Shown: one piece after another, positions 48,001 to 63,000 of the stretch
Numbering within the stretch: the first letter of the stretch is position 1
Layout of the letters: each line of letters opens with the position of its first letter
Assembly (NCBI RefSeq): GCF_964204865.1
Contig: NC_135250.1
Location: 31,868,001 to 31,932,000 of the forward strand
Direction: 5' to 3'
Origin: Styela clava
Taxonomy: Eukaryota
DNA length: 64,000 bases
Position numbers: made by a program

Positions 48001-51000
48001 CTTAAATGTTAAGGATTTCATTTTCTGGTAAATGTTATTGGATATTTCAAGTGCTGCTTACTAGTAATTTCATATATGGGAAGTATAACTGCGTAAAAAC
48101 TTGGCAGCGTCTTGCTGTTTGCACTCAAGTACAGCTTTTCCATTTTGCGGTAATTTTTGAGAAATAAATGTCATATACAAATGGTTTTATGATAGTAATT
48201 TAATTTTGCGGCCATAAAAGCGCTACACGAGTTTATTTGCAAATCTTTTGGTCGCGAGATGTTCCCGAAATTTATTTTGTTTTTAATTTTGTGGCGCTTA
48301 GAACAAACGTTGGGAGCAACTGCGCTATATGACTGCGTCGTATTATAGGCTTATCGGTGCTCCCGAAGTATGCGAACCAAGATGGCGGACATCGGAACGT
48401 AACATGGGTAACAGGTTAGGCGATAATTTTTTTCCAATTTTCTTTATTTTAGTCCTATTATCAGTTCGAAGACTAGCCAAGAGCCTCCCGTAGTATTTAT
48501 ACCTAAAATTATGGCCTAACCCTAACCTAGTACACATATTACATTCCGATGTCCGCCATCTTGGTTCGCATACTTCGGGAGCCCCTGGCTCATCTCCTAT
48601 TCAGCATAAATTAGAAAATTCTGCATACTTCAGTGCTATTTCACTGTAATTCGAAAAGAAACGTAGTTGAGTCTTCTGATAGAAATGTAGACGTTGTTAT
48701 ACACGAGAATGGATAAATTAGAGGTCAAGTAAGAGTGAATGCTTGTAATATTAATTGATCCATCACACCAAACTCGCATGTATAAGACCAAACATGTGAA
48801 TTAAAGCAAACTCTACAGATAGACCTGCTGTCCCTTGTAATGTTCTGCTCTGCCCCTAAGGCACTCACCTGGGCCCGACTCTGCGCATATGGCCGTTGTT
48901 CCGACCGTCATGCTAGAAACAAACAAAGGTAACCCCTACAAATAAACCGACCTTGACCCAAACCCATTAATATCAACTAACGAATACACCAGTTATAAGG
49001 GTTGGGAAAATTACGGTTCGGATCCGGCCACCTAAGTACTTCATTAGGACCACTTGTGTCTGCTGGTAGTAAGACTATATTGGATATAAATTTCCGTTGA
49101 AAATATCGATGACAGTCGCGAAATAATGACCCCAATTGTGACATTGTGCTTCTTAGCTCAGCTGTTATAAATAAACTGTTTTTATTCAAAGTTTTTCTCA
49201 TTGAGTTTTAAGCCTCCGGTCCAGTAGCCAATTATATCATGCGTAACAACCCACGTAGGAGAGTAACTGCCCACCCCTGGATTAGCTTTTAATACTTGCA
49301 TTACTTTTTTATTAAAAAAAATTTTTTTCCATTTTTAGTGCCTTTTTACAAATAAACGTGTATGATGTTATCTGTTGTTCCGTTTATTATTTTTCTTACA
49401 TTGCATACATCATCAGCTCAAGATAACGTCATCGAAACTACGTCAGGACCTATACGTGGCCAGGTAATAAATTATTTTGTTATCGACCGATTATAAATCT
49501 CATACCTGTCAACTCGGATATCATATCTAATTTTTTTCCCCCCAGAGGTCAGGATTTGCGAACAGAGGCGACATTACTGAATATTTGGGAATCCCCTACG
49601 CTGAACCACCCACCGGAGACAACAGATTTCGGGGCCCGGTTCCAGTCAGGCCGTGGAATCGAACGTTGGACGCGTTTGAGTTCGGCTCAGCTTGCCTGCA
49701 GAATGACCTTGAGCTAAGTACGTCTCTTGTTGGGGCTCAAACCACAGACACGGGTAAGAGGACTTCTTAATATTTTGCTCATTTGTTTACATCTGGCATG
49801 ACAAACTACTGCCCGCGGGCCAAATCCGTACCGCTCGGTATTCAGTCTGGCTCGTCTGATGCTGCCACAGCCAAACTAAAAACAAATTTGGATGTTTTAG
49901 CTAAAAAAATAGCTCAAGAAATTTGTTCAAATTTCAAGCAAACCACCTTACGGCGGCGAGAAGTCCAGAAATCCTTTCGCACATAACTATATTCGCATGG
50001 GATAGAACCTGCGAACACACGCAGAGTAATCACAGGTGCGGTGGCGAGCGTATTCCTATCGCTTAGCTCTCCACGCCTTATATTTTATAATTATCACGAC
50101 ATTCCAAGATCGTGTTAGCACAAACACCATGGAGCCTAAAGTTTCTATATTTCAGCTTTCTCCGGTATTGTGATGAGTGAAGAAGATTGCCTCTACCTTA
50201 ATATTTATCAGCCGGCTGGTACAGATATGACGTCCACGACAATGTCAACGTCACAAGATAATGTGACGCCACAATCAAATGTGACGTCTCAACCCAATGT
50301 GACGTCCCAACCCAATGTGACGTCAGAAACCAAAGCTGTCATGGTCTTCTTCCACGGAGGCGATTTCGTCAGCGGGTCAGGTAAAGTGAGACCTAATTCT
50401 AAAATAGGGTAGGATTATTTATCCCGGGGGAAAGGAAATTGCATAAAACGTTCTAAATCAGGGGCGGGCAAATACGGCCCACTTGCATCTGTTGAAATGA
50501 CGAGTATAGCTTTGAGTAAATTGTTTTTATTTATAGTTTTGTTACTCCCGAAGTATGTAAACCAAGATGGCGGACACCGGAACGTAGTGTGTGTACCAGG
50601 TACCAGGTTAGGGTTAAACCATAATTTCAGGTACAACTACTACGGGAGTCACTTGGCTAGTCCCTGAACTCGTAATAGAAATAAAATAAGGAAAATTAGA
50701 ATAAAAATATGACCTAATCCTAACCTGGTACACATACTACGTTCCGGTGTCTGCCATCTGGGTTCACATACTTCGTAAGTTACCATAGTTCGATTTGCAG
50801 TACATGGTGGGTGTGGGATTAGTTAGCCAGTTGTTCGTTTCAGTCGCATAAATTTTGACACTGCTTTCTTCTTTTTTTAGGAATGGCATACAGCGGATCG
50901 GTGCTTGCGTCAGAGCATGACGTCATCGTAGTTACTGTGAACTACCGTCTGGGGGCGCTAGGATTTTTATCAAATGGAAGTGACTCAATGCCAAGTAATT

Positions 51001-60000: not shown

Positions 60001-63000
60001 ACGGCGAAGCAACTGAGCAAGACCGGTTGGCTCACTCCCAGACCTCCTAAATAGGAGGTCTGATGTTCTGGACCGATAGCACGGATTCGAATCGCAGGCG
60101 ATCCACTGAAGCGTGAATATGTGGTCTGCTAGACCGGTTCCAGCGGACATGTAATCAGGCCTATACTATGTTCAGGTTGTGCGCCATCTTGGTACACATA
60201 TGACGGGAGCACTTTAGAAAGCGCACTGCTAATAGAGTGGTCCAGCCTCGAAAGTCTAAAATGCGTTTCAAGCTACGAAAAATTGCCGTGTATGACACAA
60301 AACATTCCAAAAGCAGGGGTGCCAAACCTTACATATCTGAAAACCTGGTTAAGCTCTTGCTTGCATTGCCAACGCAGTCAGGCCTCCAGTTAGCAATTGA
60401 ACACGGACCGCTGATATTAGAATTCGAACTGATCGAGCTAATAGAAACCCCGACTACTTGCATTCACTAATGATAGATTAGACTCCGATTTATTCAGCTC
60501 TCACAACAGAAAACCTCTTATTTTTATCCAGGCGTCGACATGTCGAATGACGTAGCAGGTGCCTTGCTGATAACCTTCATCTGCTTGACGGCCGTTTTGT
60601 TGTTCATGTTTATCTTCTCCTGCTGGCAAAGCAATAAAATGAAGTGAGTATTTTATTGGCACGAAATGTATCTGGATTATTTTGTGGTTGCTGAACTTTC
60701 TTGTTTCATCCACGTAAAACGCTTCATTCCTTACAGGAAAAAGATAAAGAAACTCTTGTCAGACGACTATGATGGTTCGGTGGTTTCCAACATGTCATCG
60801 AAGCTGTAGAAAAAGGAATGAATTCAACTTTATACTCAGTGGTTCTCAAAACTTTTTAAGCCCCCCCCCCTCCCCCCTTTTCTAGAATTAGTCTTGCGCC
60901 CCACCTCAAAAAAACTAATTATCTAAAAAAAAGTTATAAATAACCGATATTAAGGCGGAAATATGTTTTATTCGAAATATACGTTGAAAATGCGTGTATA
61001 GAACGTAAATATCCGAAATGAAGAAATGTAATTTACCAAAAGAAGGCAGGCAAGATCAAATCTAAAAATGCTTTATATTTTAATTGGCTTCACGCCCCCT
61101 TAAGAATTGTCTACGCCCCTACGTGGTGGTACGCGCCCCACAATTTGAGAACGACTGATAAACATTTCCCGAATTAGTGATTTTGCTTACTTTCAATTTA
61201 CATTAACGAAATCCCGGCTTTAAGGAGCTAAAAAATGCTGACTAATTATTAATAAAAAAGGCAGTCTTCGGTCCAACTGTCTTGTATATATCGAAACCAG
61301 TGCCGTATCTACGTAAAATGGCGCCGATGGTAAAGTTGAAAAATGCACCCCTTGATCGTTGACTGACATTTTATAACGACTGTTGTTGAATTGAGGATTC
61401 TCCCGAAGTATTCGTAGCAAGATGGCGCACAACCTGAACATAGTATGCGTACCAGGTTGAGGTTGTTCAGGTTGTGCATCATCTTGGTACGAATTCTCCG
61501 GAGCGCCGAATCGAGATACTTGTACGTTATTATTTGAGAAAAAATACAAGTTCCTACTAATTTCGATATGAAATTATTTGATTGAAAAGTTTTACCCATT
61601 TTGCACCCCCGGTACGATTTATGGCTGCCATAACCTAGATACGCCACTGATCGAAGCCCCATCTCCGTATTTTTTTGGGGGTGGGGTTTGATTACTGTAG
61701 TTGTCACGAAATATTTATGACGGACTCGCACTGTAAAAACTACTGTAATTTTGCTGTAATTGGAAGAAATTTTGACAAATGTAGACTAGAATGCCACCCA
61801 GAAGCGTAGCGAGTAATTCTTAATGACGGGAGGAAGGTAGGGGGATTTTGATATTTCTAATTGCTGAGTTTGACCTCTATTAGCTAGTTTCCGGGGTTTC
61901 AAGAGTTTTGGGCTGAGTTTTGAACGTTTCAAGCTACGAAAATTGCTATGTATATGATACAGAAAAATCCTTTTTTCACATTCTAAAAAAGAGGGCCCTC
62001 ATCGAACCTCATACCCCTAGGGCTACGCCTCTGGACTGCCGCCAACCAAGTCCGTGCATGCAAACCTGGCTCCATCATTTTCTTGTGTAATCTGGCAACT
62101 ACTTTCTAATTTCAATAAATCTTTCTGTACCTGGCGATTGTCTCGAAATGTTTCAAAGTCTCCAGTGCTTTTTTGTTTCAATTAGAATTTTTAAATGGTC
62201 GATTTTATTAACCGAATAATTGAAAATATACGCCAATAATAAATATTTGAAAAATACTGGACAAATTTTTCACCATTAGGCAGAGTTGAGCAGAAGTCCT
62301 TTAACCGCAAGTCGAGGTTTTTCCGAGCAAGATCAGTCCGAGCAATCTGAAAAAGTCTCAAATTTTTAGTTTTTAGGGAGGCAATTTTGGTACTCCCGTA
62401 GTATGTGTGCCAGGTTAGGGTTGGGCCATCATTTTATTCCGATTTTTTCTATTTTAGTTCTATTACGAGTTCGGGACTGTCTGTGTTACCCTAACACCGT
62501 GTTAGTCAAGTGAATATACTACTGGAGCGCTGCAATTTTTTTGTATAGTGACGTAATACGAAGCTTACTCGTGCCTTTTGTCGAAGCTGTCACACTTACT
62601 GATGGGAACTGCATAAATACCGTTGTCTTAGACCAGAACTACTTAAATATTTTCACAAAAGTTCCGTTTACGAAACTTCAAAATTACTGAAGTCCGGACA
62701 TTACAGAAAATTCTTTAGTTGGGGTGGAGATTCTTCAGTTGATCCCGTTTCCCAATTGAAGAATATCCCTCTCCCCCAACCCACCTAAGCCGACAATACC
62801 AGCTGATCCTTTATTTGACCTGGACTAATTATTTGGTTAAGATTAGATGGTCTTAGTTGGGGTGGAGATACTACAGTTGGTCTAACTTGAGGTGAAGATT
62901 CTTCAGTTGGGTAGCCTGGGGAATATTCTTCAGTTGATCCCAAGTATTTATACAAGCCGCAATAGTTATGTCAGCCGACTAATTCGCTATCGTTCGTTTC

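What the first reader, a model, noticed from the sequence alone, without database searches (positions are those of the whole stretch)
49362..60809. Neuroligin-like surface protein with all three catalytic-triad positions changed
Seen: the nucleophile elbow reads FGSGSGG (Ser to Gly), the acid position reads GSNNLDG (Asp, a conservative change from Glu), and the His position reads GAANGEE (His to Asn). The second cholinesterase disulfide (GC...CLR) is gone (FGIGAMNDVMSYLR). After the domain come a Pro/Ser/Asp stalk, one TM helix and a tail of only about 30 aa ending SSKL, which fits the class I PDZ ligand pattern S/T-x-hydrophobic. Known: neuroligins have GSGAG/GSGIG, keep the AAHGDE His, and have longer tails ending in a PDZ ligand. 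Inference: this is either a very divergent neuroligin or an independently derived cholinesterase-like adhesion molecule in an invertebrate chordate.
Basis: partly seen in the sequence, partly recalled or inferred. Interest (0 to 1): 0.75.

Follow-up and report, generated by a model that had tools for sequence, protein, structure and literature searches.

The report
Dead esterase-fold membrane surface protein
This is a 14-exon animal gene for a cell-surface protein built on a cholinesterase-type fold that has lost its catalytic serine and histidine, a known kind of adhesion-type molecule, but whether it is a very divergent neuroligin or a separate offshoot of membrane-bound esterases stays open.

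Summary
On the + strand, 49362-60809, 14 exons with GT-AG introns and fitting phases add up to 646 codons. Exon by exon, five pieces hit Pfam COesterase. The nucleophile is Gly in FGSGSGG, the His position is Asn, the acid is Asp, and both Cys of disulfide 2 are gone. A signal peptide, an acidic Pro/Ser stalk, one TM helix and a 29-residue tail ending SSKL follow.

So it is a catalytically dead, membrane-anchored cholinesterase-like surface protein. Asp is also the acid in five triad-intact references, so only two positions are disabling.

Neuroligin membership is not settled. For it: the G-S-G-x-G elbow, a 30-residue Cys-loop and a long loop before the oxyanion motif, neuroligins as best solved matches of exon 4, and short PDZ-type tails in hemichordate neuroligins. 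Against it: likelihoods summed over ten exons put it outside the neuroligin clade, 11.3 lnL units worse (sd 7.6), best beside amphioxus membrane-anchored esterases.

No close relative and no tunicate protein turned up. Exons were never joined.

The parts
49362..49463 (+). Exon 1: start codon and signal peptide
   Evidence: First ATG of the open frame. Hydrophobic N-terminus, KD19 1.65. Donor CAG|gtaata, phase 0. No family hit.
49546..49753 (+). Exon 2: start of the esterase fold; first Cys of the Cys-loop
   Evidence: Pfam COesterase 2e-15. PDB: AChE 1.5e-10, neuroligin-1 6.2e-10. Strong acceptor, donor CGG|gtaaga, phase 1.
50156..50380 (+). Exon 3: second Cys of the Cys-loop, long N-glycan-rich loop, xGG oxyanion motif
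   Evidence: Pfam COesterase 4.1e-09. Four N-x-S/T sequons coded by an 18-bp tandem repeat at 50248-50333. The loop-spanning alignment was to neuroligin-3 only.
50881..51053 (+). Exon 4: best conserved core strands
   Evidence: Pfam COesterase 1.2e-23. The top 14 PDB rows are all neuroligins. The best library identity is 70%, to a Ptychodera neuroligin.
51660..51837 (+). Exon 5: nucleophile elbow FGSGSGG, Ser replaced by Gly (codon 51702-51704)
   Evidence: Pfam COesterase 3.2e-13. Aligned to FGSGAGGS of neuroligin-1. Column table.
52533..52633 (+). Exon 6: region of disulfide 2, both Cys replaced (Ile, Tyr)
   Evidence: Restricted alignments and column table. The only weak local match is to a starfish esterase (E 1.3-3.5).
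53409..53493 (+). Exon 7: the strand that reads PV.DG in relatives (here VWQPVIS)
   Evidence: Alignment. The V-W before P-V-I is shared with the three amphioxus esterases; Trp stands in that column in 4 of 51 references. An alternative donor at 53490 has the same phase.
54295..54461 (+). Exon 8: acid position, Asp (codon 54327-54329) in VGSNNLDGS
   Evidence: Alignment. No Pfam or PDB hit on its own. tblastn to P0086 at E 0.17.
54846..54965 (+). Exon 9: divergent stretch before the His loop
   Evidence: Open frame with a strong acceptor and donor GAG|gtattt, phase 0 at both ends. No significant match.
57081..57190 (+). Exon 10 (called E11 in my calls): His loop GAANGEELPYLFG, His replaced by Asn (codon 57090-57092)
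   Evidence: Pfam COesterase 6.5e-05, below the cut-off. Neuroligin-2 alignment. tblastn to 10 of 11 references. The donor CGG|gtttgt is weak.
57594..57766 (+). Exon 11 (E12): end of the fold, last helix with the conserved F-W
   Evidence: Restricted alignment. No significant match alone.
58667..58780 (+). Exon 12 (E13): acidic Pro/Ser stalk with a Cys just after the fold
   Evidence: 25 of 37 residues are P/S/T/D/E/G, with 2 Cys. The best (non-significant) local match is the C-terminus of a hemichordate AChE-like protein.
60532..60643 (+). Exon 13 (E14): transmembrane helix and basic stop-transfer residues
   Evidence: KD19 2.87 for ALLITFICLTAVLLFMFIF.
60737..60809 (+). Exon 14 (E15): cytoplasmic tail ending SSKL, then the stop codon
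   Evidence: Frame and stop. The C-terminus fits the S/T-x-hydrophobic pattern. That pattern is recalled, not tested.

Best explanation
The gene encodes a type I membrane glycoprotein. Its ectodomain is a carboxylesterase/cholinesterase (COesterase) fold that can no longer hydrolyse esters: Gly stands at the nucleophile and Asn at the general base.

It most likely works as the known cholinesterase-like adhesion molecules do. The dead fold serves as a binding module held above the membrane on a short acidic, probably glycosylated stalk. The 29-residue tail links to cytoplasmic scaffolds through its C-terminal S-K-L.

What is shown: the fold, the residue changes, the lost disulfide, the hydrophobic helix and the tail. 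What is inferred: the topology, glycosylation, the lack of activity, ligand binding and PDZ binding.

Within the family it is a long-branch member whose nearest kin is not resolved. It is either a fast-evolving neuroligin or a dead descendant of membrane-tethered esterases like those of amphioxus.
For: - Gene model: 14 exons, GT-AG ends and fitting phases at all 13 introns, 1941 nt in all (the sum is my arithmetic).
- Fold: Pfam COesterase in 5 of the 14 pieces scanned, in the right order along the profile: positions 23-74, 81-120, 120-175, 178-224 and 429-475 of 515.
- Nucleophile: Gly here, against Ser in 37 of 37 references outside the neuroligin clade and Gly in 12 of 14 neuroligin-clade references.
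- General base: Asn where 49 of 51 references have His.
- Anchoring: signal peptide, TM helix (KD19 2.87), stalk and tail.
- Same architecture in named neuroligins: TM helix plus tails of 23-28 residues ending TVV or TNV in three hemichordates.
- Published definition of neuroligin architecture: signal peptide, ChE-like domain, O-glycan stalk, TM helix, short tail with PDZ motif (PMC2570956, passages seen).
- Non-catalytic members of the fold as adhesion molecules (PMC5943944, passages seen).
- No second family copy in the window.
Against: - There is no transcript evidence. The model rests on frames and splice signals only, and the donor of the His-loop exon is weak.
- Nine of 14 pieces give no COesterase hit on their own, and eight have no significant match to any of 372 family proteins (best E 0.077). 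The C-terminal half of the fold is very divergent and shorter than in the relatives.
- Only disulfide 1 of the family's conserved disulfides is left. That could also mean decay.
- No orthologue was found, so conservation of the odd residues could not be checked.
- The elbow and His changes are single-base differences from Ser and His codons. A sequencing error or a polymorphism cannot be excluded.
Confidence: 0.75

Rival explanations
1. It is this lineage's true neuroligin (orthologue or lineage-specific paralogue), evolving so fast that likelihood methods pull it out of the clade. It would bind neurexin across cell contacts and PDZ scaffolds inside.
For: - Elbow: G-S-G-x-G with Gly at the nucleophile, as in 12 of 14 neuroligin-clade references and 0 of 37 others. 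GSGSG is identical in the Glandiceps neuroligin.
- Cys-loop: 30 residues, against 31-35 in 12 of 12 measurable neuroligin-clade references and 11-27 in 30 of 30 measurable others.
- Loop before xGG: 50 residues, against 21-40 in 10 measurable neuroligin-clade references and 16-21 in the others.
- Exon 4: the top 14 PDB rows are neuroligins.
- Exon 5: the top 3 PDB rows are neuroligin-1.
- His loop: closest to AAHGDELPYVFG of neuroligin-2.
- Hemichordate neuroligins share the short tail.
- Exons 3-5 alone place best inside the clade.
Against: - Likelihood summed over ten exons: the neuroligin stem is 11.26 lnL units below the best edge (RELL sd 7.64; it is the better one in 0.6% of 2000 resamples), and the clade's weight ratio is 0.000. 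For the five Pfam-positive exons the gap is 3.58 (sd 9.29; 14.5%).
- In all 10 leave-one-exon-out runs it is 8.5-13.4 units worse.
- The method re-placed 5 of 5 neuroligin-clade members with weight 1.000 in both column sets.
- Disulfide 2 is kept in 14 of 14 neuroligin-clade references and lost here.
- A Cys sits directly after the last helix, which neuroligins are said to lack (PMC5943944, passages).
- The tail ends K-L, not the R-V called critical (PMC2570956, passages).
- The loop before the acid strand, the main neurexin contact by PMC5943944, is not conserved.
Confidence: 0.4
2. It is an independently derived cholinesterase-like adhesion molecule: a dead descendant of a chordate clade of membrane-tethered carboxylesterases, convergent on the neuroligin layout.
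For: - The best summed-likelihood edge is the stem of three amphioxus proteins named Ces2e-like or carboxylesterase 4A-like (weight 0.693). It is also the best edge in 6 of 10 leave-one-exon-out runs.
- These three are the only 3 of 51 references that lack the second Cys of disulfide 2.
- P0316 has a TM helix (KD19 2.87) and a 25-residue tail. P0289 and P0299 end in a hydrophobic stretch.
- They carry a Cys soon after the last helix, as here.
- They share V-W before P-V-I in exon 7.
- P0289 has the highest summed exon score of the 51 references (701).
Against: - The placement is unstable. In 4 of 10 leave-one-exon-out runs the best edge moves elsewhere and the clade's weight drops to 0.08-0.16.
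- With the five Pfam-positive exons the best edge is a mollusc esterase clade.
- Identity to every reference is only 26-37%.
- The amphioxus Cys-loops are 13-14 residues against 30 here.
- Their elbows are GESAG.
- Long branches tend to fall on deep edges.
- The backbone was a FastTree topology without support testing.
Confidence: 0.35
3. It is a decaying or mis-modelled gene, not a working protein. The divergent C-terminal half, the lost disulfides and the changed triad would be signs of relaxed constraint.
For: - Eight pieces have no significant match.
- Only one conserved disulfide is left.
- The pendant branch of 2.2-2.7 substitutions per site is longer than in any control (0.1-1.8).
- There is no transcript data.
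Against: - No stop or frameshift in 646 codons spread over 14 exons.
- Every intron has canonical ends, a pyrimidine tract and the right phase.
- The signal peptide, TM helix and basic stop-transfer cluster are intact.
Confidence: 0.08
4. It is still an esterase that uses other residues.
For: The acid Asp is compatible with catalysis (5 triad-intact references have Asp), and the xGG oxyanion motif is kept.
Against: No Ser at the elbow and no His in the His loop. None of the 37 references outside the neuroligin clade lacks the Ser.
Confidence: 0.03

Closest known systems
Neuroligins (vertebrate NLGN1-4; hemichordate and echinoderm neuroligins named by NCBI)
   Same: - Type I layout: signal peptide, ChE-like ectodomain, stalk, one TM helix, tail with an S/T-x-hydrophobic end.
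- Gly at the nucleophile in G-S-G-x-G.
- Long Cys-loop and a long loop before xGG.
- Short tails in hemichordates.

   Different: - His replaced by Asn and Glu by Asp.
- Disulfide 2 lost.
- A Cys right after the last helix.
- The tail ends K-L, not R-V.
- The loop before the acid strand is not conserved.
- Summed likelihood does not place it in the clade.

Amphioxus membrane-anchored carboxylesterase-like proteins (P0316 'carboxylesterase 4A-like', P0289 and P0299 'pyrethroid hydrolase Ces2e-like', Branchiostoma)
   Same: - C-terminal membrane anchor.
- Second Cys of disulfide 2 missing.
- A Cys after the last helix.
- V-W before P-V-I.
- Best summed-likelihood edge.

   Different: - They keep Ser, Glu and His (GESAG elbow).
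- Their Cys-loops are 13-14 residues.
- They have no long glycan loop.
- Identity is about 31-33%.

Gliotactin / GLIT-1 of insects and nematodes
   Same: ChE-like ectodomain, one TM helix and a short intracellular part. All three triad residues are replaced in GLIT-1 (PMC5773152, passages seen).
   Different: No sequence of this family was in my reference set, so kinship was not tested. The replacing residues differ (two Asp and an Arg there).
Bile-salt-activated lipase and other active type B carboxylesterases and cholinesterases
   Same: The same fold. Asp is the acid in the shark bile-salt-activated-lipase-like references. Exon 2 matches AChE as well as it matches neuroligin.
   Different: They are soluble or otherwise anchored, catalytically intact, and keep disulfide 2.

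Membership tests
Type B carboxylesterase / cholinesterase fold (Pfam COesterase PF00135) | Sequence match to the family profile above the curated cut-off | tested here: met
   Four single exons score 36.4-84.3 bits against a 27-bit cut-off, and a fifth scores 22.5 bits. They are colinear with the profile.
Type B carboxylesterase / cholinesterase fold (Pfam COesterase PF00135) | Conserved disulfides 1 and 2 | tested here: not met
   Disulfide 1 is kept. Both Cys of disulfide 2 are replaced; 51 of 51 and 48 of 51 references keep them.
Active esterase of this fold | Ser-acid-His triad | tested here: not met
   Gly at the Ser position, Asn at the His position. Asp at the acid position is compatible. 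Activity itself was not assayed.
Cholinesterase-like adhesion molecules (functional class) | Non-catalytic ChE-like ectodomain on a membrane anchor | tested here: met
   The class is as listed in PMC5943944 (passages seen). The adhesion function itself is not testable here.
Neuroligin | Signal peptide, ChE-like domain, O-glycan stalk, one TM helix, short tail (PMC2570956, passages) | tested here: met
   Hydropathy and composition per exon. The topology is inferred.
Neuroligin | Gly in place of the nucleophile Ser | tested here: met
   Gly in 12 of 14 clade references, 0 of 37 others.
Neuroligin | Falls inside the neuroligin clade in a tree | tested here: not met
   - Summed exon likelihoods: clade weight 0.000, 11.26 lnL units below the best edge (sd 7.64).
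- Five Pfam-positive exons: weight 0.021, 3.58 units below (sd 9.29).
- This is not a formal rejection, and no full-length tree was made because the exons were not joined.
Neuroligin | Disulfides C117-C153 and C342-C353 (numbering of PMC2570956) | tested here: not met
   The first is kept and the second lost. Its third, C512-C546, is also absent: exons 9 and 10 hold no Cys. Honeybee neuroligins lack the third too (PMC2570956, passages).
Neuroligin | C-terminal PDZ ligand with the critical R-V | tested here: not met
   It ends S-S-K-L. The hemichordate neuroligins end TVV or TNV, so R-V is not universal. PDZ binding is not testable here.
Neuroligin | Neurexin-binding surface, mainly the loop before strand beta7 (PMC5943944, passages) | tested here: inconclusive
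   In the alignment the vertebrate loop motif is not conserved here. It is not conserved in the hemichordate neuroligins either. No fold or docking was made.
Neuroligin | Long Cys-loop and a long loop at the splice-site-A position | tested here: met
   30 and 50 residues. Clade ranges are 31-35 and 21-40; the others are 11-27 and 16-21. I chose these as clade marks from my own reference set; they are not a published definition.
Gliotactin, neurotactin, glutactin, thyroglobulin ChEL domain | Kinship by sequence | not tested
   No named member was among the sequences the tools returned.

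The most novel reading that the evidence does not exclude
The gene is not a neuroligin. It would be the dead, adhesion-type descendant of a chordate clade of membrane-tethered carboxylesterases that is still catalytic in amphioxus. That would be a second, independent invention of a neuroligin-like surface molecule in deuterostomes, with the active ancestor state still observable.
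Probability: 0.33. Interest if true: 0.6.

Novelty: new member of a known kind. Interest (0 to 1): 0.35.

Why it matters
Dead esterase folds reused as cell-adhesion molecules are a textbook case of an enzyme turned into a binding module. Neuroligins are central to synapse biology.

A gene that has the neuroligin layout and elbow but does not group with neuroligins, and that resembles membrane-bound amphioxus esterases in several small traits, could show how such a switch happens. If it is a neuroligin, it would show how far one can drift (no His, no second disulfide, a 29-residue tail) while keeping the architecture.

It is of interest mainly to people who curate this family or study invertebrate synaptic adhesion.

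Tried and rejected
- Missing exon between 54965 and 57081. I first looked for one. An ORF reading ...NTYIWLFGH... (55367-55498) looked like the usual strand before the His loop. Its phase does not fit, and it lies in an interspersed repeat. tblastn with 11 references found nothing there. Both flanking exons are phase 0, so no exon is needed.
- Exon 2 search among longer proteins: 17 candidates, none scored.
- Library search with exon 4. It was swamped at the top by multi-domain fusions; the best single-domain identity was 70%.
- Per-exon FastTree placements. They were inconsistent: of 8 exons, only exon 8 (support 0.0) had neuroligin-clade sisters, and exon 3 sat next to the clade. I dropped them as uninformative for fragments of 28-74 residues.
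- Summed BLOSUM scores. They do not separate the families: vertebrate neuroligins 595-657 against invertebrate esterases 577-629 in the first set. In the second set the top is an amphioxus esterase at 701, then a neuroligin-2 at 674.
- First MAFFT runs. They gave alignments over 3000 columns wide because of two-domain proteins. Free fragment placement misaligned exons 6, 9 and 13. I re-aligned exons inside the column range set by their neighbours, which builds colinearity into those alignments.
- IQ-TREE backbone.
- Literature. Four searches found no paper on a tunicate neuroligin. Of the 28 papers that hold both 'neuroligin' and 'Ciona', 25 were listed. I read passages of four, and none describes such a gene. 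The tree in supplementary figure S3 of PMC5773152 includes Ciona proteins, but supplements are closed.
- C-terminal SKL. It is also the classic peroxisomal signal (recalled). I rejected that reading for a protein with a signal peptide and a TM helix.

Left out by rule: joining the exons. So there was no full-length search, no exact look-up, no structure prediction, no complex prediction and no full-length tree.

Full report
What is there. The window is AT-rich animal-type DNA (G+C 0.32-0.41 in 2-kb steps) with no N. On the + strand between 49362 and 60809 I could lay out 14 coding exons from the stop-to-stop frames and the splice signals:
- 49362-49463
- 49546-49753
- 50156-50380
- 50881-51053
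- 51660-51837
- 52533-52633
- 53409-53493
- 54295-54461
- 54846-54965
- 57081-57190
- 57594-57766
- 58667-58780
- 60532-60643
- 60737-60809

All 13 introns begin GT and end AG after a pyrimidine tract. The phase left by each donor is the phase needed by the next acceptor. The lengths add up to 1941 nt, that is 646 codons and a stop (my arithmetic). In my calls the last five exons are labelled E11-E15, because I first expected one more exon in the 2.1-kb intron after 54965. None is needed and none was found.

No full-length protein was built, searched, folded or put in a tree.

The fold and the residues.
- Pfam COesterase matches five pieces in profile order: 2e-15, 4.1e-09, 1.2e-23, 3.2e-13 and 6.5e-05. 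The last is below the curated cut-off. The other nine pieces give no COesterase hit.
- Against solved structures, the elbow exon aligns its FGSGSGG to FGSGAGGS of neuroligin-1, which puts Gly on the nucleophile position.
- The His-loop exon aligns to AAHGDELPYVFG of neuroligin-2 with Asn on the His. That match is weak alone (E 0.45).
- In a 51-reference alignment, to which each exon was added separately inside the column range fixed by its neighbours, the column table shows the following.
  - Nucleophile: Ser in 37 of 37 references outside the neuroligin clade, Gly in 12 of 14 inside it.
  - His: present in 49 of 51.
  - Acid: Glu in 45 of 51 and Asp in 6 of 51. Five of the six Asp references keep Ser and His, among them two shark sequences named bile-salt-activated lipase-like.
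  - Disulfide 2: its two Cys are kept in 51 of 51 and 48 of 51.
- The window's gene has Gly, Asn, Asp, and Ile and Tyr for the two Cys.
- Disulfide 1 is kept. Exons 9 and 10 hold no Cys, so the third neuroligin disulfide is absent too.

The rest of the protein.
- Exon 1 is a hydrophobic signal-like start.
- Exon 3 holds four N-x-S/T sequons, coded by an 18-bp tandem repeat of 4.8 copies.
- Exon 13 of my labels (58667-58780) is 25/37 P/S/T/D/E/G.
- The next exon holds a 19-residue window of KD 2.87, followed by basic residues.
- The tail ends SSKL.
- The topology, glycosylation and PDZ binding are inferences from these patterns.

Relatives.
- No close relative turned up. Exon 2 against longer proteins gave nothing.
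- Exon 4 against 1.84 billion cluster representatives gave 12,031 proteins at E up to 0.001. The best single-domain identity was 70%, to P0080, which NCBI names neuroligin-4, X-linked-like of the hemichordate Ptychodera flava.
- Neither listing of 120 rows names a tunicate.
A neighbouring FIT gene is nearest to clusters whose members are mostly chordate, which is a weak hint only.

Is it a neuroligin? The evidence splits.

For neuroligin:
- Exon 4's 14 best solved matches are all neuroligins (2.8e-15 to 1.9e-14, then bile-salt-activated lipase at 2.7e-14).
- Exon 5's three best are neuroligin-1, though Torpedo AChE is level with them (2.1e-09 against 2.3e-09).
- Exon 3's long loop could only be spanned by neuroligin-3.
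- The elbow is of the neuroligin type, and is identical to that of the Glandiceps neuroligin.
- The Cys-loop has 30 residues, against 31-35 in 12 of 12 measurable clade members and 11-27 in 30 of 30 measurable others (7 others and 2 clade members could not be measured by my pattern).
- The loop before xGG has 50 residues, against 21-40 and 16-21.
- The three hemichordate neuroligins have tails of only 23-28 residues, ending TVV or TNV.

Against neuroligin:
- Exon 2 matches AChE slightly better than neuroligin-1 (1.5e-10 against 6.2e-10).
- To pool the exons without joining them, I fixed a FastTree LG+gamma backbone of the 51 references. For each exon I computed the likelihood of attaching it to every branch over a grid of positions and pendant lengths, then added the numbers.
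- The best edge is the stem of three amphioxus proteins (weight ratio 0.693), with a pendant of 2.2 substitutions per site. The neuroligin clade, stem and inside, has weight 0.000.
- Its stem is 11.26 lnL units worse. Resampling of the 465 pooled sites gives sd 7.64, and neuroligin is better in 0.6% of 2000 resamples.
- With the five Pfam-positive exons the gap is 3.58 (sd 9.29; 14.5%). With exons 3-5 alone the best edge lies inside the clade.
- Leaving out any one exon keeps neuroligin 8.5-13.4 units behind.
- As controls, five clade members and five outsiders, pruned and re-placed on the same columns, went to the right side in 20 of 20 runs. A long-branch sister (P0115) was ambiguous in one of its two runs. 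The controls are lenient because the backbone was built with them in it.
- None of this is a formal rejection. A branch this long is prone to fall on deep edges.

The amphioxus lead. The three Branchiostoma proteins (P0289, P0299, P0316, named Ces2e-like or carboxylesterase 4A-like) keep the full triad.
- They are the only 3 of 51 references that lack the second Cys of disulfide 2.
- P0316 has a C-terminal TM helix (KD 2.87) and a 25-residue tail. The other two end in a hydrophobic stretch.
- All three have a Cys shortly after the last helix, as the window's gene does. Neuroligins are described as lacking such a C-terminal Cys (PMC5943944, passages seen).
- They share V-W before P-V-I in exon 7. 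Trp stands there in 4 of 51 references.
- Against this lead: their Cys-loops are 13-14 residues, their elbows are GESAG, identity is about 31-33%, and the placement moves in 4 of 10 leave-one-out runs.

What it most likely does. The safest statement is functional: a catalytically dead ChE-like ectodomain on a membrane anchor, the class that reviews list as neuroligin, gliotactin, neurotactin and glutactin (PMC5943944, passages seen). Replacement of all three triad residues is already described for GLIT-1, which also has a short intracellular part (PMC5773152, passages seen). The finding is therefore a new, very divergent member of a known kind. The open and more interesting question is its origin.

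Limits.
- There is no transcript evidence and no orthologue, so no test of constraint.
- Eight pieces have no significant match to 372 family proteins (best E 0.077).
- The alignments of the divergent exons were forced to be colinear.
- The backbone topology was not tested.
- Gliotactin, neurotactin, glutactin and thyroglobulin were not in the reference set.
- Supplements that may show Ciona neuroligin-like proteins (PMC5773152, S3 Fig) were closed.

Papers.
- I saw search listings.
- I saw passages, through the find mode only, of PMC10084454, PMC3933685, PMC8462739, PMC3464141, PMC5773152, PMC5943944 and PMC2570956.
- The S/T-x-hydrophobic PDZ class I pattern, the peroxisomal reading of SKL and the Asp triad of bile-salt-activated lipase are recalled, not taken from a call.

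Noticed in passing
window 50248-50333: An 18-bp tandem repeat (4.8 copies, 82% matches) inside exon 3 codes the repeated N-V-T-S-Q-P units. These give four N-glycosylation sequons in the loop where neuroligins carry splice site A.
   Followed up: partly
window 49324-49361: A pyrimidine tract plus AG ends 23 nt before the start codon. It could be the acceptor of a 5' UTR intron or a trans-splice acceptor.
   Followed up: no
window 50542-50837, 52049-52113, 53006-53202, 55475-55722, 56326-56473 and other sites window-wide: Several interspersed repeat families (D1-D9, D14; up to 11 copies of a 65-nt core in the window) sit in the gene's introns and just upstream (48352-48600). They explain the recurring peptide-like ORFs on both strands.
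   Followed up: partly
proteins P0316, P0299, P0289 (Branchiostoma): Triad-intact amphioxus carboxylesterase-like proteins with a C-terminal TM helix or hydrophobic end and without the second Cys of disulfide 2. This membrane-tethered esterase clade may be kin of the window's gene.
   Followed up: partly
proteins P0080, P0151, P0152 (hemichordate neuroligins): All three have only 23-28 residues after the TM window and end TVV or TNV. Short-tailed neuroligins therefore exist outside vertebrates.
   Followed up: yes
protein P0117 (unnamed representative): A neuroligin-clade sequence with Asn at the nucleophile and Gln at the His position. This shows that loss of the His occurs within that clade.
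   Followed up: no
window 13220-14662 (+): A single-exon 480-codon open frame with Daxx N-terminal and DAXX histone-binding domains (8.8e-08 and 6.7e-23).
   Followed up: no
window 17585-18463 and 20759-21694 (+): Two tandem single-exon genes of the fat storage-inducing transmembrane (FIT) family (4.9e-10 and 3.4e-23). They share a 125-nt stretch at 73% identity (D19). The second is nearest to chordate-dominated FIT clusters.
   Followed up: partly
window 38692-39495 and 42779-43141 (-): Two exons of an FKBP25-type gene: a basic tilted helix bundle domain (1.6e-26) and an FKBP_C domain (1.2e-31).
   Followed up: no
window 18862-19225: Three copies of a 74-nt unit spaced 145 nt apart, between the two FIT genes (D16).
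   Followed up: no
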